From: a phage
DNA length: 64,000 bases
Sequence record: OZ346228.1
Reading direction: 5' to 3' (one strand)
In this document: piece after piece, positions 17,691 through 27,645 of the stretch
Numbering within the stretch: the first letter of the stretch is position 1
Layout: each line of letters opens with the position of its first letter
Position numbers and translations under genes: made by a program
Notes under the pieces: generated by a model
What the model was told of the DNA's origin: nothing
Seen by the model: the letters and a program-made list of their open reading frames with translations, nothing else
The model's database searches: none

Positions 17691-17954
17691 TTAGAAACCC
17701 TCTAAAAAGCTCTTGTAGAAAATAATTTCAGTATCTACACCAGTCACGATCTTATCGTTCCTGATTTCATCTGTAAGGTAGGTGTCAAAACGCAGAACCT
17801 GTGTGGTGTTGTCACACATCCACTCAGCTGTGACCATTGCGAAAATCTTAGCATCTTCATTATCTGGTGTGAATGTTACCACCTCACCGCACTTAAACTT
17901 TTCGATAGGCTGAGTGTTAGCTTTCGGTTCTGCGATAGTGATTTTTGTGGTCAT
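17691..17954 (-). CDS. small protein, member of tandem paralog array
   Basis: 87 aa; KFKCGEVVTF core; same length as two neighbours. Confidence 0.5.
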   Translation of the reverse strand: MTTKITIAEPKANTQPIEKFKCGEVVTFTPDNEDAKIFAMVTAEWMCDNTTQVLRFDTYLTDEIRNDKIVTGVDTEIIFYKSFLEGF

Positions 17955-18217
17955 TATTCTCCTCCTTCTTTTGAATAGCTTGTCTCTCCAAGGATGGTAA
18001 TTTTGGTGTCAAGCTCTGTAACTTTCATGTTTGGCGGCAGATCGTACAACTCATTATTTTCTAAATCGAACCCCCACACACAATGTTCTCCTGTTTTGAC
18101 AATCATAACTATGTTTTGAATGCCGTCTCCGTCGCAACTTACCACAGTCCCACACGGAAAGCTGTCTGCACGCTTTTTGTTCTTCACCTTAGAATTGAAT
18201 ACAATGCTGGTAGCCAT
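17954..18217 (-). CDS. small protein, member of tandem paralog array
   Basis: 87 aa; MATSIVFNSKVKNKK and GTVV core; start overlaps upstream stop. Confidence 0.5.
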   Translation of the reverse strand: MATSIVFNSKVKNKKRADSFPCGTVVSCDGDGIQNIVMIVKTGEHCVWGFDLENNELYDLPPNMKVTELDTKITILGETSYSKEGGE

Positions 18218-18480
18218 TATTGTTCCTCCACCATAACTTCGCCAATAATTTCTATGCAGGCATCCATTTCTGTAACAACCAAACTGTGAGGTAGTTCTAC
18301 AAACACCTTTCTGAACAGGTCAAATACCCCAACATATATGTTTGCAGGATGTGATTTTACAACAAGTGCTGTATTCACATCCCCAAGTTCATCAACAAAC
18401 ATCACCACAGTGCCTGGAGCTACTGAGGACAGATACTTCTTAGTTTTACGGTTTGATGCAAATTTTAACTCTGTTGCCAT
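18217..18480 (-). CDS. small protein, member of tandem paralog array
   Basis: 87 aa; MATELKFASNRKTKK and GTVV core; FDL motif shared with 17954-18217. Confidence 0.5.
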   Translation of the reverse strand: MATELKFASNRKTKKYLSSVAPGTVVMFVDELGDVNTALVVKSHPANIYVGVFDLFRKVFVELPHSLVVTEMDACIEIIGEVMVEEQ

Positions 18481-18495
18481 AAATAACCTCCTCTC

Positions 18496-19977
18496 TTACT
18501 TAGCGTACTCGATTAATTCCACAGTTTTACCAAAGCTCGGGATATAATTTTTATTATACCCCTCAGTGAGGACCCATAGAGTATCGTACTTTTTCCACTT
18601 GTTGTCAACAACCTTTTGTTCAAAGTTATGCTCAAAGTATAGGTCGGTCAGGACGATGACATCTTTTGCATTAGGTATGTTGGCATCCAGATACTCGAAC
18701 ACGCAAGCAGCTGTTGTGCCCCATGTTGAGTGGACCTCATAGTTGATCATCTCGTCTATGTTGCCGCGAGTGTATACTTTAACCTCTCCAACCTCAGTTG
18801 ACCAACAGAACATTGTAACCTTAAACTCTTTATACAGATTGCACAATCCGGTGATTTCATTGAACATTTTCTTTAAAGTTCTTTGAGAGATCGAGCCAGA
18901 AACGTCTAAAGCCACCACAATATCTATAGTGTTTTCCGGATTACGACCAGGAACAATAACGTGCTGGTTCTTGTTTATAGCCCCAACTTTTCGCATTGTG
19001 CTGGTCAAAGACCCAGATCGGCGACCAGGTTTTCTGTAGGTCAGTTCGGCCTTTCTTTTAGACAACATACGTTGCTTAATGATGTCTATATAGTTGATTA
19101 CAGGCTTACCTCTGTTCTTGACAAACTCACGCACCGCCTCAGGGCAACGGCCTCCGGACGCTTGCATTGCTGCCTCCAGCATATCACCAGAGTCCTGCAT
19201 GGCCTGATCTTTATCAGATTGGCTGATTACAGGTTGTGGCTGATCATACCCCATAGCCTTTCCAAGATTATCACTGGTGCCACCGTTCCCACTCATGTGA
19301 TCATCGGTTTGTCGCTTATCACTTTGAGAGTTCTCACCTTTACCGTTCTTACTTTTACCGTTATTCTGATCTCTTTGCTTATCAAGAACTGCATAAACGT
19401 TCTCAGCAATCCATCCATGAAACTTCATGTCGCAGTAGCAGCTGGCTAAGAAGCCAAAAGGCTTACCTTTCATGAACGTAGTGCTTTTCCCCTTCGGGAA
19501 GAAAACACAAGGGGGTTTGCTAAAGTCAACCACAAGGCCTGTGTTGATAACGTGATCACAAGCAATATTGAACAGTTCCGGCTCAAAGCTTTTACCACGG
19601 ACTAGGTGATCACAGATAATATGCCCCACCTCATGTGACAGAAGGAAGGCCACCTCTTTCACAGATTTTGGGGAATAGAAAACTTCAGCCATCTCAAACT
19701 GCTCGTCAGTTAGAGAAGCCTTAAGAATAGCCTTGCGCTCATCAGCCAATCCCATAATGAACTCAGGACTGTAATAGATGCGTTTATGGTCGGTTGCCAT
19801 GGTGGAGCACCATGTGTGGTTTTCTACGAACTGCAACCCTGACAGTAGTGTGCCATAAAACGGCAGCTTTTCAAGGAGATACATACGTGCAGCCTGCAAC
19901 ATTCTCAGGGCATCATCTTTCTGCGAGGCAATGATTTCTGAACTTCTGCTATCCATTAAAACTCCAGAAGGGGCCAT
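18496..19977 (-). CDS. VWA-domain protein with N-terminal HExxH metallopeptidase-like domain
   Basis: 493 aa; HExxH (LSHEVGHIICDH) in N-terminal half; MIDAS-type DxSGS (VVALDVSGSI) in C-terminal half. Confidence 0.75.
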   Translation of the reverse strand: MAPSGVLMDSRSSEIIASQKDDALRMLQAARMYLLEKLPFYGTLLSGLQFVENHTWCSTMATDHKRIYYSPEFIMGLADERKAILKASLTDEQFEMAEVFYSPKSVKEVAFLLSHEVGHIICDHLVRGKSFEPELFNIACDHVINTGLVVDFSKPPCVFFPKGKSTTFMKGKPFGFLASCYCDMKFHGWIAENVYAVLDKQRDQNNGKSKNGKGENSQSDKRQTDDHMSGNGGTSDNLGKAMGYDQPQPVISQSDKDQAMQDSGDMLEAAMQASGGRCPEAVREFVKNRGKPVINYIDIIKQRMLSKRKAELTYRKPGRRSGSLTSTMRKVGAINKNQHVIVPGRNPENTIDIVVALDVSGSISQRTLKKMFNEITGLCNLYKEFKVTMFCWSTEVGEVKVYTRGNIDEMINYEVHSTWGTTAACVFEYLDANIPNAKDVIVLTDLYFEHNFEQKVVDNKWKKYDTLWVLTEGYNKNYIPSFGKTVELIEYAK

Positions 19978-19989
19978 CGGCCCCTGTCA

Positions 19990-21033
19990 TTATTTAACGT
20001 GTTTGAAAATACCTGCCAACTCGGTCATTGTCATGCGGGTGGTCTTCATAAGATCTGTCATAGCTTTCTCCATAATTGGAGATACTACCATAAAGTTTCC
20101 TTTAGTGAAACCTTTATTCCAGTCGGTCACCAACAGGGGTTTAAGTCCAGCTCCAAGACGTTCACCAGTTAAAGCACAGCATTTGCGAATATACGAACTC
20201 TTAAATTGGCTGAACGACAGATCAACTTTCATACCTACATCGTAGAACGTTTGACAATAGAAAGTGTAAGCTTTGGCAATCTCAACATCATCAGGTAGTG
20301 CAGGAACCTCTTCTGTAAGCTCCTCTTCGACCTCCTGAGTCTCTTTTTCCTCTTCATGCACCTGTTGCGTCATTTCTTCAATCTCTTCTGTGATAGGCTC
20401 GTTTACAATGTCGGAAATGTGCTTCTTGGGTGCACGATAAGTAACTTTAGACATCGGTAGCATATCTTCCTCCTCTTCTTCGTCAAAGAGTGCTAGTTTA
20501 TCCTCTTCCGTTCCATATTGCAAGATGAAATCTTCAAAAGTATAATCACCTTTCAATTTCTCCATACGCTCTTCGCTCAGGTGGAGCATCATCTGCTGGA
20601 CAATTTTTCGATCAGTTTCGTCTTTAATCAAGACTGCAGTCTTTTTATCTACCAGACAGTCCTTTAGAGAGTTGCATCTCAATCCCACCACACAACAGTT
20701 ATCAACCGCATAAGGACCTTCATCATCTATCCGCTCCAGAGATGGGTAGAAAGGATTCCCCAGCCCGTTTTCATCTGTGTGCATGTCAAAAGGTATAAGG
20801 GTATAGTCGCATACTCCATCTCCTAAAAGTTTTTTACCAAATAGGAGGTATTCTTCCCATGACAGGTCGAACTCTATATCTCGTTTCCGTGCGTTATTCT
20901 GTTTGCGTCTATATTTTTTGAGCAAGCGCTCTAACTCTTCTGGTGTATAATATTTTTCAAGATTCATGAGTCGTCTCTCGTGCTCTGTAAGTGAAGAAAT
21001 CGTATCAATTGTCTCAACAGATGTCAACATCAA
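19990..21033 (-). CDS. hypothetical protein with degenerate HNH-like motif and acidic linker
   Basis: 347 aa; PSLERIDDEGPYAVDNCCVVGLRCN resembles the SIDRID...GY...N...C..CN nuclease-like motif; Glu-rich linker; internal SD plus ATG at residue 194 sits inside a 29-bp inverted repeat. Confidence 0.5.
   Translation of the reverse strand: MMLTSVETIDTISSLTEHERRLMNLEKYYTPEELERLLKKYRRKQNNARKRDIEFDLSWEEYLLFGKKLLGDGVCDYTLIPFDMHTDENGLGNPFYPSLERIDDEGPYAVDNCCVVGLRCNSLKDCLVDKKTAVLIKDETDRKIVQQMMLHLSEERMEKLKGDYTFEDFILQYGTEEDKLALFDEEEEEDMLPMSKVTYRAPKKHISDIVNEPITEEIEEMTQQVHEEEKETQEVEEELTEEVPALPDDVEIAKAYTFYCQTFYDVGMKVDLSFSQFKSSYIRKCCALTGERLGAGLKPLLVTDWNKGFTKGNFMVVSPIMEKAMTDLMKTTRMTMTELAGIFKHVK
20431..20459 (-). 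repeat. 29-bp inverted-repeat copy spanning an internal ATG of the 347-aa ORF
   Basis: Reverse complement equals TACCGATGTCTAAAGTTACTTATCGTGCA at 22293-22321; perfect 29/29 match. Confidence 0.7.
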
Positions 21034-21109
21034 AAACGTGTTGACTTTACTCTAACTCCACAATATAGTGCACCCATTCGAAAGAAAACTAACATAGGAG
21101 CACTTACTT

Positions 21110-22009
21110 ATGGCAAATCTTAACAGTTTTAGTACGCGGTGGAAACAGGACATAACAACCAATCTTTCAGCTGGGGACATCCTTTCTGCAATTTACGAGG
21201 CTTTAGATGATAAAGCTACTTCAAAAGCGGTTTGTACCAACCCATTAATTCCTATAGTGATGAAGGTTATTGAGCGTAGATTGGTATCTGGGTCTGATAA
21301 GTGGACATATTTAGATAATGAAGGACACACCTATTCCAATGGGTATGTCGATATAAAAGTAGAATACGCGGTATCATACCGCCGGAGCGGTTCTGTAACT
21401 TTCAACTTCTCTGGAGGTTTTCGATCTCTGGCTACCTCACCTTTTGTTTCCTCAGAGGAGAAGTATGAGCTGCCATTTCTTTGGATGATGGCTAACGCGA
21501 CAGGAAAAACCCCCGTTAGCATCCGAGTAAAATACAACTACAACGGATCTAGTAAGATCTATGCCGAAAGTGTCTCAGCAAGTTTTTATTTTGTGATGGG
21601 GGATGGAATCCTCAAACATATAAAGATGTGCGATATGCATGATGTTATAAATGAAGTGACTGATAAGAATGTTCTAGTGAAAGACCTCAACAATTTTTAT
21701 ACACCTGGAGACTATTACGTCAGCCGTCCACTGTGCATCTTTAATGCCGCACACCCTCTAGGTGAGTATTTGATCGCCAATAGCGATATTGCCAATAACC
21801 GCTTCGAGGTAGCAAGAGTTCAGAATGAGGTATTGACATCTTGCAAGAGCGGTGATAAGTTTACCGAAGAAGAGATGGGTGTTTTAGAAATGATGGGATA
21901 TAAGTGTAGCCTTTGGGTAGATGAGGTGTTTAATGATTGCATCTATGGACAGGATATTTACCCATTAAAGAAGTATACTGATACAAGTTTAATTTATGCG
22001 AGGGTTTGA
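21110..22009 (+). CDS. hypothetical protein
   Basis: 299-aa ORF, first gene of the rightward cluster. Confidence 0.5.
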   Translation: MANLNSFSTRWKQDITTNLSAGDILSAIYEALDDKATSKAVCTNPLIPIVMKVIERRLVSGSDKWTYLDNEGHTYSNGYVDIKVEYAVSYRRSGSVTFNFSGGFRSLATSPFVSSEEKYELPFLWMMANATGKTPVSIRVKYNYNGSSKIYAESVSASFYFVMGDGILKHIKMCDMHDVINEVTDKNVLVKDLNNFYTPGDYYVSRPLCIFNAAHPLGEYLIANSDIANNRFEVARVQNEVLTSCKSGDKFTEEEMGVLEMMGYKCSLWVDEVFNDCIYGQDIYPLKKYTDTSLIYARV

Positions 22010-22284
22010 CTATGATGAAGGCATGTGGTAATGTATATTACGTCGGTGAACATGTTCAGGCAGACAGTGTGTGGAAATCTATTAAGTCCACCACTGACGA
22101 TGCCCTTCTGAGTGGACTATGTTTCCCCAATCCGGGAGACATCCTCCCTCATCCTGGAGATTTTGTTGTCAACAAGATGGACGGTTATACCGTGTGCCTG
22201 ATGGTTGAAAAAATCTTTTTAGACACTAGACACAATCACCGTCTTGTGTTAAAATTTCAAGAATGTAAAATGACAATTGCCTAA
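22006..22284 (+). CDS. hypothetical protein
   Basis: 92-aa ORF overlapping upstream stop by 4 nt. Confidence 0.45.
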   Translation: MTMMKACGNVYYVGEHVQADSVWKSIKSTTDDALLSGLCFPNPGDILPHPGDFVVNKMDGYTVCLMVEKIFLDTRHNHRLVLKFQECKMTIA

Positions 22285-22292
22285 GGAGACCT

Positions 22293-22321
22293 TACCGATG
22301 TCTAAAGTTACTTATCGTGCA
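22293..22321 (+). repeat. 29-bp inverted-repeat copy spanning the start codon of ORF 22298-22654
   Basis: TACCGATGTCTAAAGTTACTTATCGTGCA; partner at 20431-20459 on the opposite strand. Confidence 0.7.
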
Positions 22322-22654
22322 GCTATTTACTGCAATGAACACCCAATCAATAATGATGGTCACTGCCTTTTTAAAGAAAATCAATTGGGCTGTATTGTCC
22401 TCCCTGATGAAGGGGAAGGTTATCTGATTGCATTGACAGGGTTTGAACCTGAGGCTCTGGAAGCCAATCTGGACTACCTGGTAGAAGAGGGTGCTGCAGA
22501 CCTGGTTGCCAATGGCCTCTCCATAAGCCTTGACGAAGTAGAGCGCTTCATGGGCAATTACCGTGTAGTGCGTGAGTTTACTATCGAGGTGGAAACTCCC
22601 GAGTGGAGTAGCCATGAAACTAATGCCGAAGAAAAAGAAGAGGAGGTAGAATAA
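22298..22654 (+). CDS. hypothetical acidic protein
   Basis: ATG at 22298 preceded by AAGGAG; the track start at 22277 is TTG; the first 8 codons (MSKVTYRA) are identical at DNA level to an internal segment of 19990-21033. Confidence 0.5.
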   Translation: MSKVTYRAAIYCNEHPINNDGHCLFKENQLGCIVLPDEGEGYLIALTGFEPEALEANLDYLVEEGAADLVANGLSISLDEVERFMGNYRVVREFTIEVETPEWSSHETNAEEKEEEVE

Positions 22655-22911
22655 TGAAAGTGCAGATCTTGACTAATGCCGAGAAGATGTTTATTGAAGA
22701 TACACCTTTTGAAGCTGGTGAGCTACAGTTCGTTTATTTTGTTGACTTAGATAAGGTGTTTCCTGCACTGAATCTAGGTTTGGATGAAGTTCCTCATAAG
22801 GTTTTGTGCCAAGTTGTTCGTGCCTTAGCGGCAGAGGGGGAGTTCCACACCCTTCAAGATGTCCAGACCTACGGGTATCTTGAACTACAACGAGAAGAAG
22901 AGGTGGACTGA
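22654..22911 (+). CDS. hypothetical protein
   Basis: 85-aa ORF, coupled to upstream gene. Confidence 0.45.
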   Translation: MKVQILTNAEKMFIEDTPFEAGELQFVYFVDLDKVFPALNLGLDEVPHKVLCQVVRALAAEGEFHTLQDVQTYGYLELQREEEVD

Positions 22912-22913
22912 TA

Positions 22914-23294
22914 ATGGCTCAGTGGAAGACGACAGTTGACCTTCATGATCAGTGGTTAGGACGCATCACTGAAGACGGGAAGCTAGTGGAGTGGGACAAT
23001 AAGCATGTTAGCGAGTTGGCAAGTATTGTGGCTGGCAAGTTACGCTCCAAGTTCCCTGAACAACTGGATCCTGATAGTTCAAAGTTCGATCCTGAGTTGG
23101 AGGATGTTGTATACTACTTCGATACCGTGGATGACTACGATGCGTGGTTTGCAGCACGGGAGCTTTACCCACAAGGCTCTGCTATGCGCCAGATGGAAGA
23201 AGATTATCCTCCGTGTGAGCAATTCAATAGTGCAATGACTTGCCTCTATGATTGGGCAGATAAGAACCTTGTCTGGATTCGGACTGCATTTTAG
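22914..23294 (+). CDS. hypothetical protein
   Basis: 126-aa ORF. Confidence 0.5.
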   Translation: MAQWKTTVDLHDQWLGRITEDGKLVEWDNKHVSELASIVAGKLRSKFPEQLDPDSSKFDPELEDVVYYFDTVDDYDAWFAARELYPQGSAMRQMEEDYPPCEQFNSAMTCLYDWADKNLVWIRTAF

Positions 23295-23338
23295 TGGGCA
23301 GGAATGGCGGCAAGGATGCCGCTTAAGGAGTAGTAGAG

Positions 23339-23608
23339 ATGTTATACCAGCAATATGAACTTCGTGCAGAAAAAGAGTTAAATTTTGACAAAGATATTCA
23401 CAGATATTATTATGGGAAAGTTAGAGGGCAAGCAAGAAAGTGTACTCCAACACTCTTTTATGCCAGCAGACGACTAGCGCCAGAAGAGGCAACAGCAGAA
23501 AGGGTTGCGTACAACTGGAGAGTCACGTATGATATTGACAGATTCGATGTGATATCTGTTTTGGAAAACTTTGAAAACACTTACACACAAGTAGAGGACT
23601 TTTACTAA
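23339..23608 (+). CDS. hypothetical protein
   Basis: 89-aa ORF immediately upstream of the AAA ATPase. Confidence 0.45.
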   Translation: MLYQQYELRAEKELNFDKDIHRYYYGKVRGQARKCTPTLFYASRRLAPEEATAERVAYNWRVTYDIDRFDVISVLENFENTYTQVEDFY

Positions 23609-24792
23609 TGTCAAGAAACGTATTCGAAAGTGGTCAAATCACTGTCCGTGAGTTGCCAGCTATTATTCAGTTTGCCCAACGTCATAGCCGATCTGTCCTA
23701 ATTTTGGGACCAATGGGTGTGGGTAAAAGCCAGGTGATGAAGCAGATCGCTGATAATATGTTCGGTGAGCGAGATGACAACCTTGTTGACGTGCGACTGT
23801 CAGATAAAGATCCTGCCGACTTATCTGGGCTACCTATCCCTGTAGAAGCGGATGGAACTACACGTACAGTGTTTGCAATTCCAGAATTTTGGCCTGCGGA
23901 TCCTGACTGGAGCGGAATTATCTTTCTGGATGAGCTCACTCATGCAGATAACTACCTGCAAAAGGTTGCAATGCAAATTATGCTTGACCACAAGTGCGGC
24001 ACCTATGCATTCCCTAAGGGTTCTGTTTTTGTGGCTGCGGGTAACCGTTCTACAGATGGTGCGGTTCTTTCGGCGCTCGAAGCCCCTCTGGCTAACCGTT
24101 TTATCATTGTAGAGGTTACAAGCAATGCAGAGGTGTTTATTGAGGACTACGCATTCCTCAACGGGGTTCACTCCTCTGTAATTGGGTATCTGAAAAGAGT
24201 TCCATCAGCTATTGATAATTATGAGGCTATGGCTGAGATTAATTGTCCATCTTTTGCCACACCACGATCTTGGGTTGCTGCATCTGACATCTTGCACGAT
24301 TTTGACAGCGGTATTATTTCTGACGCTATGGCCCGTGTTCTTCTGCAAGGTGCTATTGGTCACACTGCAGCGGTAGAGATCTGGACATACCACACCAAGA
24401 AACGCAATTTACCGGAAATCGGTCGGATTATGGCAGGTGGCTGCAAAGAATACGTAGGCCCTAAGCAGCCAGACATTTTGTGGATTCTTGGATCTGAAGG
24501 TTGTATCGCTATTCGTAATATGATGGAAAATGCAAGTATCTCAGACGAAGATCTTGTCAGCTGTGTGGCAAACTTCCTCGATTTCCTTTGGGAAAACTTC
24601 AAGGACGAGAACCGAGATTTTGTATTCTCAGTCTTTATGGCGATGATGAAACCTAATGCCTTAGGAAATGCCTTGCTTATCGGTAAAGGGCGTGACAAGA
24701 TTGTTGCTCAGCTGATCAAAGCATACCCAAACCTGATGAAGATTGTAAAAGAGTTTGGTGAAGAGTTTAGCGCCATTTTGGCTAAAGCTTAA
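23608..24792 (+). CDS. MoxR-like AAA+ ATPase
   Basis: 394 aa; Walker A GPMGVGKS, Walker B IIFLDEL, AAGN sensor segment; fits MoxR/AAA_5-type ATPases. Confidence 0.8.
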   Translation: MSRNVFESGQITVRELPAIIQFAQRHSRSVLILGPMGVGKSQVMKQIADNMFGERDDNLVDVRLSDKDPADLSGLPIPVEADGTTRTVFAIPEFWPADPDWSGIIFLDELTHADNYLQKVAMQIMLDHKCGTYAFPKGSVFVAAGNRSTDGAVLSALEAPLANRFIIVEVTSNAEVFIEDYAFLNGVHSSVIGYLKRVPSAIDNYEAMAEINCPSFATPRSWVAASDILHDFDSGIISDAMARVLLQGAIGHTAAVEIWTYHTKKRNLPEIGRIMAGGCKEYVGPKQPDILWILGSEGCIAIRNMMENASISDEDLVSCVANFLDFLWENFKDENRDFVFSVFMAMMKPNALGNALLIGKGRDKIVAQLIKAYPNLMKIVKEFGEEFSAILAKA

Positions 24793-24802
24793 GGGGGGTT
24801 GT

Positions 24803-25183
24803 ATGGCTAAAGTAGGTAAGCGGGGAAACTACCTGGTGGTATTGACCGAGGAGCCGGAGAAGGAGTACGAATGCAGCTCCACTTGCGTGATCGATATCCG
24901 AGAAAAAGATGTAGATGAAATCTGGTTTAAAATATTGGACGCTTGCGATAGCAGTGATTATTTCTTCATTTATGTCAACGATAAGGCTGGATTCTTCCAT
25001 GACGACGGAGAGTTGCCGTATGAAATCTATGAACTTGTAGAGGCTTGCCATCGTGGAGATGCGGAGTTGTTTGGCCTACGGCTGAAAAGCGGTAAATTCT
25101 TCTATCAAGATGAGTGCATGAATCTTCATAACTTTGTAGAGGGAACTTGCAACGATGGAGAGATTTTGGCACACTACGATTAA
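24803..25183 (+). CDS. hypothetical protein
   Basis: ATG at 24803 after a G-rich RBS; the track start at 24755 overlaps the ATPase gene; terminator follows. Confidence 0.5.
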   Translation: MAKVGKRGNYLVVLTEEPEKEYECSSTCVIDIREKDVDEIWFKILDACDSSDYFFIYVNDKAGFFHDDGELPYEIYELVEACHRGDAELFGLRLKSGKFFYQDECMNLHNFVEGTCNDGEILAHYD

Positions 25184-25192
25184 TTTCTAAGA

Positions 25193-25222
25193 CCTCCCCC
25201 GCTTCGGCGGGGATTTTCTATT
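25193..25222 (+). terminator. rho-independent terminator
   Basis: CCTCCCCCGC-TTCG-GCGGGGGATT followed by TTCTATTT. Confidence 0.65.
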
Positions 25223-25232
25223 TGGAGTCATT

Positions 25233-25733
25233 GTGAAAATTAAGATCTTTGCTATTATTTTGAGCGCACTTTTATCGCTGCCTGTTGTTGCAGCACCAAA
25301 ACAAAAAGTATATCATACTTGCAAGCCCTCAGATACTAAGGAAAACATTCTGGCATGCAATATCTACAGGGAGGCTAGAGGGGATGGCACGATGGGTATG
25401 CTGGCATCAGGGTTTGCCACACTAAACAGGAAATCTCACCCCAAATACCCAGACACTATAAGAAAGATTGTCTACCAACCTAACCAGTTTTCGTGGACAA
25501 ACCACGGCAAAACTTTTAAGGTGACAGAAAAAGATTCATGGGATCACGCTAAAAGTCTTGCAAAGATGCTTCTAAAGGTCTATAATAACAACCATGTTGC
25601 ATACATGGCTATGGACATAACAGGTGGAGCAACACACTACCATACAACCAAAGTACGACCGAAATGGGCAAAAAAGATGCAGAGGACAGCTCAATTCGGG
25701 AGTCATATCTACTACAAGGAGCGCAATAAATGA
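25233..25733 (+). CDS. SleB-like cell wall hydrolase with signal peptide (endolysin candidate)
   Basis: 166 aa; N-terminal signal-like segment (KIFAIILSALLSLPVVAAP); CNIYREARGDG and QFSW motifs typical of SleB/Hydrolase_2 family; GTG start after GGAG. Confidence 0.7.
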   Translation: MKIKIFAIILSALLSLPVVAAPKQKVYHTCKPSDTKENILACNIYREARGDGTMGMLASGFATLNRKSHPKYPDTIRKIVYQPNQFSWTNHGKTFKVTEKDSWDHAKSLAKMLLKVYNNNHVAYMAMDITGGATHYHTTKVRPKWAKKMQRTAQFGSHIYYKERNK

Positions 25734-26275
25734 TTGTAAACAGTAATGAAACTAAAGCAGTACTAACCGGAAATATGGAGGTCACCAGGGGCTCAATTTC
25801 TCTGAACAAAGAGACTTTTGGGCTAATCATTAAAGGGATTTACGAAGATAAGGTGCTGGCAAGCTGCCGTGAACCAATCTTCAATGCTGTGGACTCCCAT
25901 GTTGAGTCTGGACGGGGTGATGTACCGATCATCATTCACTCTCCTACAGACCTTGAACCATACTTCTTTGTGCAGGACGTTGGATTGGGCATGTCGGAAG
26001 AGATGGTCCGCAACACTTTCATGAACCTCGGGGAGTCAACCAAGCGCAACAGCAACGCTCTGGTAGGTAATAAAGGTGTAGGTTCAAAGGCCCCGTTCAG
26101 CATGGTGGACACTTTCGATGTGATCAGTGTGCCATACCAACACAACAGTGCTAAGTGCCGTGCATGCCGCTACGAAATAGTAGCAGCACCGGAATCACGC
26201 AAAGATGGCGATCCGATTGAATACGTAGTTGACCGTGATGGTAACATCATCGACATTATCTACGAGGAGGCGTAA
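25730..26275 (+). CDS. stand-alone GHKL (Bergerat-fold) ATPase domain protein
   Basis: 181 aa; N box EPIFNAVDSH, G1 box VQDVGLGMS, G2 box GNKGVGSKAPF in canonical order; resembles Hsp90/MutL-type ATPase N-domain. Confidence 0.6.
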   Translation: MIVNSNETKAVLTGNMEVTRGSISLNKETFGLIIKGIYEDKVLASCREPIFNAVDSHVESGRGDVPIIIHSPTDLEPYFFVQDVGLGMSEEMVRNTFMNLGESTKRNSNALVGNKGVGSKAPFSMVDTFDVISVPYQHNSAKCRACRYEIVAAPESRKDGDPIEYVVDRDGNIIDIIYEEA

Positions 26276-27645
26276 TGGAAAAAGGGCAGTATGACGTAGG
26301 CACAGATGCTGCCCTCATTGCAATCATGAGTGGTGAGAATGTCTTCGTTTCAGGACCTGCAGGTTGTGGGAAGACGTATCTCATCAACATGATCCAGTCA
26401 ATGTATGGAGACTCTTGCATAACGGTTGCCCCGACAGGGGTAGCCGCTTTAAACGTTAATGGAGCAACAGCACACCGAACATTCGATCTTGCAGCAGGTG
26501 TGAGCATGGAGTCGGACTGGACCGCAATAAGGGCAAAAACAGCAAAGCCTTTGAAAAGCAAGGCATTTACCATCCTAATTATCGATGAAATCTCTATGAT
26601 CCGTGCTGATAAGTTTATAGAGATGGATAGGAAACTCCGCTTCCTTCGAAAAAATGACAAACCTTTCGGAGGCATACAGGTCATATTGTTTGGCGATTTT
26701 TACCAGGCACCTCCTGTTGTCTCTTCTATGGAGAAGGAAGCCTACTTCAACTTCTACCATACGGACCTGTGTTGCTACACCGAATCTTGGAAAGAGCTTG
26801 ACCTCCACAACATAGCCCTAATAGATCAGTTCCGACAGGAGTCTATTCGATTTGCCACAATGCTTAACTGTGTTCGTGAGGGTCGTCGCATAAAAGAGGT
26901 TGTAGCAGAACTTAATGCTCGCTGTTACAAAGGTGGTGTACCAACAGATGCTCTCACAATTTGCGCCACCAACAAACAAGCAGAGGAAGTAAACAGAAGG
27001 TTCTATGATGCCATCAACGCCCCAGAGAAGGTATACACTGGTGAAATGAAGGGTAAGTTTCCCTCCACCCTGCCAGTTGAGCAGGAGATGAAGTTGAAAA
27101 TTGGCATGAAAGTTATGATAACCGCCAACGATGTTGACCCGACGCACAAAGTACCTTATTATGTTAACGGAACACGTGCCACAATTGTTAAATTTAAGAA
27201 CAAGGCGGTGGTGGTAGAGCTTGAAGATGGAACACAGGTTGACATAGAGCAGAGGTTGTGGGAGAATAACGAGTATAAGCCCTCTCAGAGATACAACATT
27301 GCAGAAAGGAAGATGGAGAAGTTTATAGAGAGGGTAGTGATTGGGTCATACAAGCAACTTCCTCTGAAATCTGGGTACGCCGTAACATCTCATAAAAGTC
27401 AAGGACTTACGCTAGATTGTTACAACCTAGACCTTGGAAAGAACGGAGCTTTCTCTCCTGGGATGACGTATGTCGCTTTGAGTAGAGTTAAGACAATACA
27501 AGGAATAAACTTGTTGCGTCCCCTAAGAGAAGTTGACATTATTGTTGACCCGCGAGTAGTAGAGTTTTACAATACAACATTCCCTGACTTAGACAAAATT
27601 GTCAGGAAAGATTTTGAAACCAGAGCAGAAGAGGGGGACGTATGA
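26275..27645 (+). CDS. Pif1/RecD-family (Dda-like) DNA helicase
   Basis: 456 aa; Walker A GPAGCGKT, IIDEISM, FYQAPPV, SHKSQG, YVALSR helicase motifs. Confidence 0.8.
   Translation: MEKGQYDVGTDAALIAIMSGENVFVSGPAGCGKTYLINMIQSMYGDSCITVAPTGVAALNVNGATAHRTFDLAAGVSMESDWTAIRAKTAKPLKSKAFTILIIDEISMIRADKFIEMDRKLRFLRKNDKPFGGIQVILFGDFYQAPPVVSSMEKEAYFNFYHTDLCCYTESWKELDLHNIALIDQFRQESIRFATMLNCVREGRRIKEVVAELNARCYKGGVPTDALTICATNKQAEEVNRRFYDAINAPEKVYTGEMKGKFPSTLPVEQEMKLKIGMKVMITANDVDPTHKVPYYVNGTRATIVKFKNKAVVVELEDGTQVDIEQRLWENNEYKPSQRYNIAERKMEKFIERVVIGSYKQLPLKSGYAVTSHKSQGLTLDCYNLDLGKNGAFSPGMTYVALSRVKTIQGINLLRPLREVDIIVDPRVVEFYNTTFPDLDKIVRKDFETRAEEGDV

What the first reader, a model, noticed from the sequence alone, without database searches (positions are those of the whole stretch)
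18496..24792. MoxR-type AAA+ ATPase and VWA/HExxH-peptidase protein encoded on opposite strands 3.6 kb apart
ORF 23608-24792 is a MoxR/AAA_5-type ATPase. ORF 18496-19977 has an N-terminal HExxH metallopeptidase-like domain fused to a C-terminal VWA domain with a MIDAS motif. Established knowledge: MoxR ATPases usually work with a VWA partner, normally encoded adjacently. Here the pair is split across divergent transcription units. The function of MoxR-VWA pairs in phages is essentially unknown.
Basis: partly seen in the sequence, partly recalled or inferred. Interest (0 to 1): 0.5.

Follow-up and report, generated by a model that had tools for sequence, protein, structure and literature searches.

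The report
Split MoxR ATPase / VWA-peptidase phage pair
This rV5-like E. coli phage carries the widespread phage and bacterial two-gene module of a MoxR-class AAA+ ATPase and a zinc-peptidase/VWA partner (the N4 gp24/gp25 pair), unusual only in that an old inversion placed the two genes on opposite strands; what the module does is still untested.

Summary
ORF 18496-19977(-) is a DUF2201_N HExxH zincin-like domain fused to a DUF2201 VWA domain with a complete, invariant MIDAS motif; its true start is probably 19956. ORF 23608-24792(+) misses Pfam AAA_5 directly, but family profiles and a confident model place it with the MoxR-class ATPases CbbQ and NorQ. The window is a Vequintavirus, 99.9% identical to phage naswa, and GenBank records already label these genes "MoxR ATPase" and "putative metallopeptidase". 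The pair is homologous to N4 gp24/gp25, two of 14 N4-like core genes of unknown function, and to the MoxR/vWA-metallopeptidase pair described in jumbo phages in 2021. In 68 of 80 viral loci and 69 of 80 bacterial loci the ATPase sits directly upstream of the DUF2201 gene on the same strand. Only the Vequintavirus, Seunavirus and Klebsiella-phage branch is split. Anchor genes fit one inversion of the [phosphohydrolase...ATPase] segment, which left both genes flanking one divergent promoter region. Most likely the ATPase hexamer remodels the VWA-peptidase or its bound substrate. This is a rearranged member of a known but uncharacterised module, of modest interest.

The parts
18496..19956 (-). 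Gene for the DUF2201-type protein (N4 gp25-like): N-terminal zincin-like HExxH domain, disordered Gly/Ser/Asp-rich linker, C-terminal VWA domain with MIDAS.
   Evidence: phrog_1314 E=5e-123. N4 gp25 scores 262 bits against the family profile.
19015..19692 (-). DUF2201_N putative metallopeptidase domain (Pfam stretch, residues 96-321 of the 493-aa ORF). It holds HEVGH (19621-19635), H124 (19606-19608) and D141 (19555-19557), all invariant in the family.
   Evidence: E=4.4e-28; invariant columns, numbered one lower there; coordinates checked; weak secondary hits to Peptidase_M48 and SprT-like in family members.
18514..18921 (-). VWA-like domain (PF09967) with a full MIDAS: D358-x-S360-x-S362 (18892-18906), G420-T421 (18715-18720), T444-D445 (18643-18648).
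19969..19985 (-). GC-rich hairpin (AGGGGCC-GAT-GGCCCCT) between the stop of the Srd-like gene and the ribosome-binding site and ATG 19956 of the DUF2201 gene. Possible attenuator, processing site or stabiliser.
19990..20967 (-). Srd-like 'anti-sigma factor' gene lying between the DUF2201 gene and the divergent junction. Present in the split lineages (4MG_242, L008) but not found next to the pair in CR8-type genomes.
   Evidence: phrog_3118; phrog_4592 'decoy of host sigma70' 2.9e-15; phrog_1400 Srd 2.9e-10.
20999..21069 (.). Divergent control region with back-to-back sigma-70-like promoter matches: (-) 21027-20999 TTGACA/17/TACGAT with TG, and (+) 21041-21069 TTGACT/17/TATAGT. Consensus matches only.
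   Evidence: The promoter count in the whole region is not above the shuffles (26 against 19.8 +/- 4.5), so this is suggestive only.
21110..23608 (+). Six rightward ORFs of unknown function between the junction and the ATPase (21110-22009, 22006-22284, 22277-22654, 22654-22911, 22914-23294, 23339-23608). The last overlaps the ATPase start (TAATG).
   Evidence: 22914-23294 is homologous to 4MG_248.
23608..24792 (+). Gene for the MoxR-class AAA+ ATPase (N4 gp24-like), 394 aa. Motifs: Walker A 23707-23730, Walker B 23917-23934, sensor-1 N146/R147 at 24043-24048, APLANRF (R164) at 24082-24102, lid ATPRSW (R220) at 24253-24273.
   Evidence: (phrog_1297 2e-110).

Best explanation
The two genes are the Vequintavirus copy of a conserved two-component module. 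One part is a MoxR-class AAA+ ATPase (N4 gp24-like). The other is its VWA/MIDAS partner fused to an N-terminal HExxH zincin-like peptidase (N4 gp25-like, Pfam DUF2201_N + DUF2201).

Ancestrally the module is an operon with the ATPase first. In the common ancestor of Vequintavirus, Seunavirus and related Klebsiella phages, one inversion of the segment [phosphohydrolase ... ATPase] moved the ATPase to the other strand. Its breakpoints were at a divergent junction and in the ATPase|DUF2201 intergenic spacer. The two genes now flank the same divergent promoter region and can still be expressed together, before the late genes.

Inferred mechanism, by analogy with NorQ-NorD and CbbQ-CbbO: the ATPase forms a hexameric ring that docks the VWA domain of the partner. 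The MIDAS site grips an acidic residue of a target protein. ATP hydrolysis remodels the partner and/or its bound target, so that the zincin domain is activated or presented with substrate. This would amount to a two-piece ATP-dependent protease or remodeller acting on an intracellular protein of the phage or the host.

Shown here: gene identities, motif conservation, fold, linkage statistics and synteny anchors. Inferred: physical interaction, hexamer formation, proteolytic activity, expression timing and the target.
For: Identity:
- Pfam DUF2201_N + DUF2201. HExxH, H, D and a complete MIDAS are invariant over 35 divergent phage and bacterial members.
- Relatives carry AAA_3/AAA_5/bpMoxR.
- Walker A/B, sensor-1 N, NRF and lid PR motifs are invariant.

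Module:
- ATPase directly upstream on the same strand in 68 of 80 IMG/VR loci (gap 58-563 nt).
- Same in 69 of 80 gammaproteobacterial loci; 71 of 71 with room have it upstream on the same strand.
- Same in N4 (gp24 -> gp25), Certrevirus CR8, cyanophage S-TIM5, jumbo phage K64-1 and Aeromonas phage 4L372D.
- N4 gp24 and gp25 score 188 and 262 bits against the family profiles.

Co-conservation while split: about 118 and 119 rV5-like records carry each protein at >=95% identity. The split persists at 53%/43% amino-acid identity in KpS11/L008 and in 4MG.

Inversion:
- The phosphohydrolase -> ... -> ATPase block is conserved in adjacent-type genomes (CR8_111, L009, A5-4) and split-type genomes (4MG_244, L008).
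- A CR8_118-like gene stays downstream of DUF2201 in both types.
- The SleB/helicase block flips relative to the ATPase.

Mechanistic precedent: NorD's VWA 'finger' enters the NorQ pore and NorQ remodels a NorD linker (PMC13036017). That binding mode has been proposed as general for MoxR/VWA couples (PMC9976466).

Timing and context: N4 gp24/25 are middle genes (PMC4193335). In six lineages the pair sits among replication and nucleotide-metabolism genes, not structural modules.
Against: - No experiment on this module exists in any phage or bacterium that I could find: DUF2201 has 3 incidental mentions, and N4 gp24/25 are listed as 'Unknown'.
- The window ATPase itself fails the Pfam AAA_5 gathering score.
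- The N-terminal domain found no solved structural relative here, because the VWA domain dominated both fold searches. 'Peptidase' therefore rests on the Pfam family, the invariant HExxH and weak M48/SprT-like hits.
- The intervening genes share no PHROG families between CR8 and the window. One anchor match is weak (4MG_239 against A5-4, E=4.5e-4). The inversion is the simplest reading but is not proven.
- Promoter-like matches in the region are not enriched over shuffles.
- The PA5oct record flags its ATPase homologue 'ESI-MS/MS'. If that means it was detected in virions, it would favour the rival assembly role.
- The 80 bacterial loci come from one narrow lineage (59-70% identity to the query), so they are not independent observations.
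Confidence: 0.6

Rival explanations
1. Virion-assembly chaperone and processing protease. As proposed for jumbo phages, the MoxR-VWA pair helps assemble a virion substructure, as ATV p618/p892 do for tail development, and the zincin domain trims structural proteins.
For: This was proposed explicitly for the same architecture in group 2.2 jumbo phages (PMC7824862). ATV p618 (MoxR) binds p892 (VWA) and virion proteins (PMC4124505). In S-TIM5 the pair follows Hsp20 and lies near genes annotated as virion structural.
Against: In N4 the genes are middle genes and are not among the listed virion proteins (PMC4193335). In the window, 4MG, CR8, 4L372D, N4 and the PA5oct-like contigs the pair lies with early/middle-type genes (anti-sigma, rII, helicase, exonuclease, dCMP/dCTP deaminase, thymidylate synthase), not in structural modules. 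The module is also a chromosomal operon in bacteria beside housekeeping-type genes. The PA5oct note also marks an exonuclease, so it is not specific.
Confidence: 0.22
2. Metal-cofactor insertion or maturation chaperone. Like NorQD, CobST, BchID and CoxDE, the pair matures a metalloenzyme, for example one in nucleotide metabolism, and the HExxH site binds or hands over metal rather than cutting peptides.
For: The closest structures are NorQ and CbbQ, and the VWA hits include NorD and BchD. The pair recurs near thymidylate synthase/ThyX, dCMP/dCTP deaminase and radical-SAM genes. A ferrochelatase gene lies two genes downstream in Sulfurivermis.
Against: None of the chelatase or maturase VWA partners named here was seen with a zincin domain in this work. 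The HExxH + H + D signature belongs to a Pfam family described as a putative metallopeptidase, with weak hits to M48 and SprT-like peptidases. No single candidate client enzyme is conserved next to the pair across lineages.
Confidence: 0.1
3. Functional uncoupling. After the inversion the two genes work independently in Vequintaviruses, with the ATPase serving another partner or the peptidase/VWA protein acting alone.
For: The genes lie in different transcription units 3.6 kb apart, with unrelated genes between them. The Vequintavirinae DUF2201 proteins carry a lineage-specific insertion of about 40 aa before HExxH.
Against: Both genes are retained intact in essentially all rV5-like records and in the Seunavirus and Klebsiella-phage split lineages at about 45-55% identity. 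All catalytic, MIDAS and AAA+ motifs are kept. The insertion is also present in the adjacent-type Certrevirus-like members (rows P0141-P0143). No second VWA gene was noticed near the ATPase.
Confidence: 0.06

Closest known systems
Bacteriophage N4 gp24 (AAA ATPase) / gp25 (vWFA protein), core genes of N4-like phages (Schitoviridae)
   Same: Homologous proteins: 188 and 262 bits against the family profiles, BLASTP 1e-27 and 1e-19. gp25 has HELWH and DTSGS. The pair sits in an early/middle replication-type region, with rIIA-rIIB and a helicase downstream in both phages.
   Different: In N4 the genes are adjacent and co-directional; here they are divergent and 3.6 kb apart. The Vequintavirus proteins are longer (394 against 352 aa; 486 against 380 aa), with an insertion before HExxH and a longer linker. 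The function is unknown in both (PMC4193335).
MoxR AAA+ / vWA-metallopeptidase pair of 'group 2.2' jumbo phages (Iyer et al. 2021, PMC7824862)
   Same: Same domain architecture. Homologues were found here in K64-1 ('gp24-like'/'gp25-like'), PA5oct, phAPEC6 and Atu_ph07-type jumbo phages.
   Different: That description covered jumbo phages only and proposed a virion-assembly role. It did not cover Vequintavirinae, the link to N4 or the split layout.
NorQ-NorD and CbbQ-CbbO (MoxR 'CGN' subfamily with VWA/MIDAS partners)
   Different: Sequence identity is only 17-19%. Their partners are not described as carrying a zincin domain in the papers read here, and their clients are defined metalloenzymes (NOR, Rubisco). 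No client is known for the phage module.
Acidianus two-tailed virus p618 (MoxR) / p892 (VWA)
   Same: This is the only viral MoxR-VWA pair with biochemical data that I found. The two proteins interact and p892 stimulates the ATPase (PMC4124505).
   Different: It is an archaeal virus. According to Iyer et al. that system lacks the peptidase domain. p618 is a virion protein linked to extracellular tail growth. Homology to the window proteins was not tested here.
Bacterial AAA_5 + DUF2201 operons (e.g. Sulfurivermis fontis AP018724)
   Same: Same two families in the same order, ATPase first, with a spacer of 10-530 nt. HExxH and MIDAS are invariant.
   Different: They are chromosomal, beside housekeeping-type genes (thioredoxin, ferrochelatase, Lon) rather than phage genes. 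Identity to the window protein is 21-25%. They are also uncharacterised.

Membership tests
MoxR-class AAA+ ATPases (AAA_5/AAA_3; CbbQ, NorQ, RavA, Midasin clade) | AAA+ catalytic motifs: Walker A, Walker B, sensor-1 Asn, conserved Arg before strand 5 (NRF), lid Arg (sensor 2) | tested here: met
   GPMGVGKS, IIFLDE, AAGN146-R147, APLANR164F and ATPR220SW are all invariant in 34 family members. They align with the equivalent Midasin motifs.
MoxR-class AAA+ ATPases (AAA_5/AAA_3; CbbQ, NorQ, RavA, Midasin clade) | Scores above the curated threshold of the Pfam MoxR-type models (AAA_5 PF07728 / AAA_3 PF07726) | tested here: inconclusive
   The window protein scores 16.7 bits on AAA_5 against a cut-off of 22, over the P-loop region only. 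However, 12 of 34 family members match AAA_5 and AAA_3 (best 2.4e-9 and 1.2e-8) and 5 match bpMoxR. Homologues at E about 1e-44 carry these Pfam assignments.
MoxR-class AAA+ ATPases (AAA_5/AAA_3; CbbQ, NorQ, RavA, Midasin clade) | Closest structures are MoxR-class, with beta-hairpin inserts in helix 2 and before sensor 1 | tested here: met
MoxR-class AAA+ ATPases (AAA_5/AAA_3; CbbQ, NorQ, RavA, Midasin clade) | Genetic coupling to a VWA/MIDAS partner | tested here: met
   The partner is adjacent in 68 of 80 viral and 69 of 80 bacterial loci of the same two families. In the window the partner is present but 3.6 kb away on the other strand.
MoxR-class AAA+ ATPases (AAA_5/AAA_3; CbbQ, NorQ, RavA, Midasin clade) | Hexameric ring, ATP hydrolysis, physical binding of the VWA partner | not testable with these tools
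   This needs biochemistry or a multimer prediction.
DUF2201-type VWA/metallopeptidase proteins (PF13203 + PF09967; N4 gp25-like) | Both Pfam domains above the gathering score, in the order N-terminal peptidase-like, C-terminal VWA-like | tested here: met
   99.1 bits (cut-off 23.2) and 43 bits (cut-off 26.4). All 35 aligned members have both domains.
DUF2201-type VWA/metallopeptidase proteins (PF13203 + PF09967; N4 gp25-like) | HExxH zinc-binding/catalytic signature with further conserved ligands | tested here: met
   H115-E116-x-x-H119, H124 and D141 (493-aa ORF numbering) are invariant in 35 sequences.
DUF2201-type VWA/metallopeptidase proteins (PF13203 + PF09967; N4 gp25-like) | VWA fold with a complete MIDAS (DxSxS ... 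T ... D) | tested here: met
DUF2201-type VWA/metallopeptidase proteins (PF13203 + PF09967; N4 gp25-like) | Actual peptidase activity and metal binding | not testable with these tools
   No experimental report was found. The N-terminal domain gave no solved structural match here.
Phage gp24/gp25-type operon (N4-like, jumbo and other phages) | Both proteins homologous to N4 gp24 and gp25 | tested here: met
   (188 and 262 bits; BLASTP 1e-27 and 1e-19).
Phage gp24/gp25-type operon (N4-like, jumbo and other phages) | Co-directional adjacent genes, ATPase first | tested here: not met
   In the window the genes are divergent and 3.6 kb apart. The same holds in L007, L008, 4MG and KpS11. The window therefore carries the components, but not the operon layout.
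MoxR-vWA 'ternary' conflict systems (Kaur et al. 2020, PMC7159879) | A conserved third component (VMAP, iSTAND, FtsH or a beta-propeller fused to vWA) | tested here: not met
   No third gene is conserved next to the pair across lineages. The vWA protein has only the zincin domain. Only 5 of 34 ATPase relatives give weak bpMoxR hits. PADLOC gave no significant hit.

The most novel reading that the evidence does not exclude
The gp24/gp25-type module is a previously unrecognised kind of two-piece ATP-dependent protease. A MoxR ring would feed or activate a MIDAS-guided zincin. Phages of at least three large groups (Schitoviridae, where it is a core gene pair, Vequintavirinae and Rak2/PA5oct-like jumbo phages) would use it early or mid-infection to destroy or remodel specific host proteins, such as defence or takeover targets. 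The Vequintavirus inversion would show that the two parts need only be co-expressed, not co-translated.
Probability: 0.2. Interest if true: 0.7.

Novelty: new member of a known kind. Interest (0 to 1): 0.3.

Why it matters
The module is one of the few gene pairs shared by N4-like podophages, rV5-like myophages, jumbo phages, a cyanophage and free-living bacteria, and it is a core pair in N4-like phages. Nobody knows what it does.

Two results here are practically useful:
- The rV5-type 'MoxR ATPase' and 'putative metallopeptidase' are the gp24/gp25 pair, so any result obtained in N4, rV5/EdH4 or PA5oct should be relevant to the homologous pairs in the others.
- The pair stays conserved after being separated by an inversion. 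This gives a natural test of whether the proteins need co-translation, and a convenient system in which each gene can be knocked down without polar effects on the other.

The many misleading database labels are also worth correcting. The DUF2201 protein is variously called 'HNH endonuclease', 'DNA repair ATPase' and 'putative anti-sigma factor'. Beyond that, the finding is a rearranged copy of a known, annotated module.

Tried and rejected
- Single-sequence searches of the ATPase gave only P-loop-level or no hits, so they could not assign a clade: Pfam, NCBIfam, PADLOC, PDB. Profiles and a structure model were needed.
- A single-sequence PDB search of the DUF2201 protein found nothing meaningful.
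- The search for related loci with the broad DUF2201 alignment failed for lack of a conserved stretch. The narrower A4 alignment worked but sampled only one gammaproteobacterial lineage.
- I tried to confirm the inversion through the intervening genes, but there are no shared PHROGs between CR8 and the window and no tblastn hits. Only the anchor genes are informative.
- Literature: 'rV5 + MoxR' and 'Vequintavirus + ATPase + metallopeptidase' returned nothing.
- The CRISPRi-ART paper used EdH4 and N4 but, in the passages found, only for capsid and rII targets, not for these genes.
- The PA5oct paper's gene numbers differ from the RefSeq tags, so temporal and virion data could not be mapped.
- Rejected: the defence-system reading (no PADLOC hit, no third component), and the 'HNH endonuclease' / 'anti-sigma factor' labels for the DUF2201 gene (no support in Pfam or in the fold).

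Full report
**What is in the window.** The region is 99.9% identical to Escherichia phage naswa. It matches 122 rV5-like records, genus Vequintavirus. They lie on either side of a switch in transcription direction near 21.0-21.1 kb, which also shows in the GC skew: negative over 14-21 kb, positive from 22 kb. GenBank records already call them 'MoxR ATPase'/'ATPase' and 'putative metallopeptidase'/'VWA-like domain containing protein'. Some records instead use clearly wrong labels such as 'HNH endonuclease' or 'putative anti-sigma factor'.

**The peptidase/VWA protein.**
- ORF 18496-19977(-) matches PF13203 DUF2201_N (E=4.4e-28) and PF09967 DUF2201 (E=6.1e-11), both above threshold.
- In an alignment of 35 phage and bacterial homologues down to about 21% identity, the invariant columns are the HExxH motif, a following His, an Asp, and a complete MIDAS (DxSxS, GT, TD). 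Coordinates were checked. numbers residues one lower than the 493-aa ORF.
- An AlphaFold model (pLDDT 82.5) has a helical N-terminal domain, a disordered linker (residues about 207-234) and a small C-terminal alpha/beta domain.
- The N-terminal domain found no solved relative, because VWA hits dominated. Across the family there are weak Pfam hits to Peptidase_M48 and SprT-like zincins.
- The probable start is ATG 19956 (GGAG, 6-nt spacer, ATG), as annotated.

**The ATPase.**
- A direct Pfam scan gives only sub-threshold, P-loop-level hits (AAA_5 16.7 bits against a cut-off of 22). NCBIfam, PADLOC and single-sequence PDB searches are equally uninformative.
- Homologues at E about 1e-44 (33-36% identity over 85% of the length) carry AAA_3 and AAA_5, and some carry bpMoxR.
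- A profile of 35 members finds Midasin as the best solved relative, E=1.8e-11, aligned over Walker A to the NRF motif.
- Walker A, Walker B, sensor-1 Asn, the NRF arginine and the lid PR motif are invariant.

**The two genes form a conserved module.**
- Of 80 IMG/VR loci that encode a relative of the ATPase, 68 have the DUF2201 gene directly downstream on the same strand (gap 58-563 nt). Nine more are cut off at the contig end and one (L039) is unresolved. Only two, L007 (rV5-like) and L008 (Klebsiella-phage-like), have the gene upstream on the opposite strand at 3.6-3.9 kb.
- Of 80 bacterial loci, all from one gammaproteobacterial lineage and so not independent, all 71 with room have the ATPase upstream on the same strand, and 69 of these lie within 600 nt.
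- tblastn finds the ATPase in 813 phage records and the DUF2201 protein in 620. These include N4-like podophages, Vequintavirinae, jumbo phages and a cyanophage.
- N4 gp24 and gp25 are the homologues (188 and 262 bits) and are adjacent. They are two of the 14 core genes of N4-like phages, are middle genes and are listed as 'Unknown' (PMC4193335 and PMC2784036).

**How the split arose.** The layouts found are:
- Adjacent: N4, Certrevirus CR8 (same subfamily as the window), L009, S-TIM5, K64-1 and Aeromonas phage 4L372D.
- Same strand but interrupted by a homing endonuclease: A5-4 and PA5oct.
- Divergent and split: Vequintavirus, Seunavirus 4MG and the Klebsiella-phage group.

Three anchors support one event:
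- A metal-dependent phosphohydrolase is the first gene after the divergent junction, upstream of the ATPase on the same strand. This holds in adjacent-type (CR8_111, L009, A5-4) and split-type (4MG_244, L008) genomes at 52-55% identity.
- A CR8_118-like gene stays just downstream of DUF2201 in both types, although one of these matches is weak (E=4.5e-4).
- The SleB/helicase block lies on the opposite strand upstream in CR8-type genomes, but on the same strand downstream of the ATPase in split-type genomes.

A single inversion of the [phosphohydrolase ... ATPase] segment gives exactly this result. Its breakpoints would be at the old junction and in the ATPase|DUF2201 spacer. Because N4, jumbo phages, the cyanophage and bacteria all have the adjacent layout, the split is the derived state. 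Later changes include the Srd-like anti-sigma gene between DUF2201 and the junction, and loss of the phosphohydrolase in rV5-type genomes. The intervening small genes are not conserved, so the model is parsimonious rather than proven.

After the inversion both genes flank one control region, which has back-to-back sigma-70-like matches at 20999-21069. These are consensus matches only and are not enriched over shuffles.

**Likely mechanism.** By analogy with NorQ-NorD and CbbQ-CbbO, the ATPase should form a hexamer that docks one VWA domain at its pore and remodels a linker in the partner (PMC9976466, PMC13036017). The invariant MIDAS would bind an acidic residue of a client, and the invariant HExxH site argues for a working zincin. 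I therefore favour an ATP-driven, two-piece remodeller or protease acting inside the infected cell.

In six lineages the pair lies among replication, nucleotide-metabolism and takeover genes rather than structural modules. This favours a pre-late, non-structural role over the virion-assembly proposal, but does not exclude it. The PA5oct homologue carries an 'ESI-MS/MS' note. A cofactor-insertion role and functional uncoupling are less likely rivals. None of this has been tested experimentally: DUF2201 has three incidental literature mentions, and the only biochemically studied viral MoxR-VWA pair I found is ATV p618/p892.

**Verdict.** The module itself is known, both as a GenBank annotation and as N4 gp24/gp25 and the jumbo-phage pair. 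What this work adds is:
- the unification of these cases;
- the linkage statistics;
- the corrected start codon;
- the inversion model for the split layout in one branch of Vequintavirinae.

Interest is modest (0.3). It would rise if the module proves to be a new type of phage ATP-dependent protease.

Noticed in passing
window 25730-26275 (junction about 26102-26132): Relative to naswa the window lacks about 2.6 kb, from about codon 134 of rIIA to near the 3' end of rIIB. What remains is a 181-aa in-frame RIIA(N)-RIIB(C) fusion ORF that abuts the helicase gene (26275-27645). The junction lies in a roughly 30-bp imperfect homology shared by the two sites. None of 120 related phage records spans this junction at >=80% coverage. 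It could be a spontaneous rII deletion mutant or an assembly artefact.
   Followed up: yes
window 19969-19985 and 19956: A GC-rich hairpin (AGGGGCC-GAT-GGCCCCT) sits between the stop of the Srd-like gene and the ribosome-binding site and ATG 19956 of the DUF2201 gene. The longer ORF start at 19977 lies inside the hairpin. It may attenuate or process the leftward transcript.
   Followed up: partly
window 18496-19956, 19990-20967, 23339-23608; PHROGs 1314, 3118, 13164: Database labels here are unreliable. The DUF2201 protein is called 'HNH endonuclease' (phrog_1314 and many RefSeq records), 'DNA repair ATPase' or 'putative anti-sigma factor'. The Srd-like gene's best PHROG is also labelled 'HNH endonuclease'. 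The 89-aa ORF upstream of the ATPase is labelled 'ATPase' or 'MoxR ATPase' with no domain support. Real homing endonucleases inserted next to the pair in some phages may have seeded the HNH label.
   Followed up: partly
L170 10285-10779 (phage A5-4); L172 14406-15902 (PA5oct): The spacer between the ATPase and DUF2201 genes is occupied by an annotated homing endonuclease in two unrelated phages. The same spacer is the inferred inversion breakpoint in the Vequintavirus lineage, so it may be a recurrent break or insertion site.
   Followed up: no
window 17691-18480 (-): Three consecutive ORFs of exactly 87 aa each (17691-17954, 17954-18217, 18217-18480) lie directly downstream of the DUF2201 gene. 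Two are assigned to the same pVOG in naswa. They look like a tandem triplication of a small gene of unknown function.
   Followed up: no
L167 (N4) compared with window 23608-27645 and L002: N4 and rV5-type phages share the gene order ATPase ... rIIA-rIIB ... helicase, despite different morphotypes and families. This hints at an old shared early/middle gene block.
   Followed up: partly
and one search hit lists (e.g. MG065635, MG065658, MG065647): Sixteen records named 'Campylobacter phage', with host Campylobacter jejuni, are >=99% identical to E. coli Vequintaviruses over this region. The host assignment looks doubtful.
   Followed up: no
NC_011041.1 7738-9214 (rV5 reference, H94): In the rV5 reference genome the DUF2201 gene matches in two pieces, under two annotated CDSs ('HNH endonuclease' and 'hypothetical protein'). 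This suggests a frameshift, either real or a sequencing error.
   Followed up: no
L171 8524-11159 (cyanophage S-TIM5): An Hsp20 gene lies immediately upstream of the MoxR-like ATPase and the DUF2201 gene, with ThyX a few genes downstream. This is a chaperone-themed neighbourhood not seen in the other lineages.
   Followed up: no
window 21110-22009 (+): The 299-aa ORF annotated 'putative alpha 1-3 fucosyltransferase' in related records has no Pfam or NCBIfam hit, only an unknown-function PHROG (phrog_12338). The annotation is unsupported here.
   Followed up: partly
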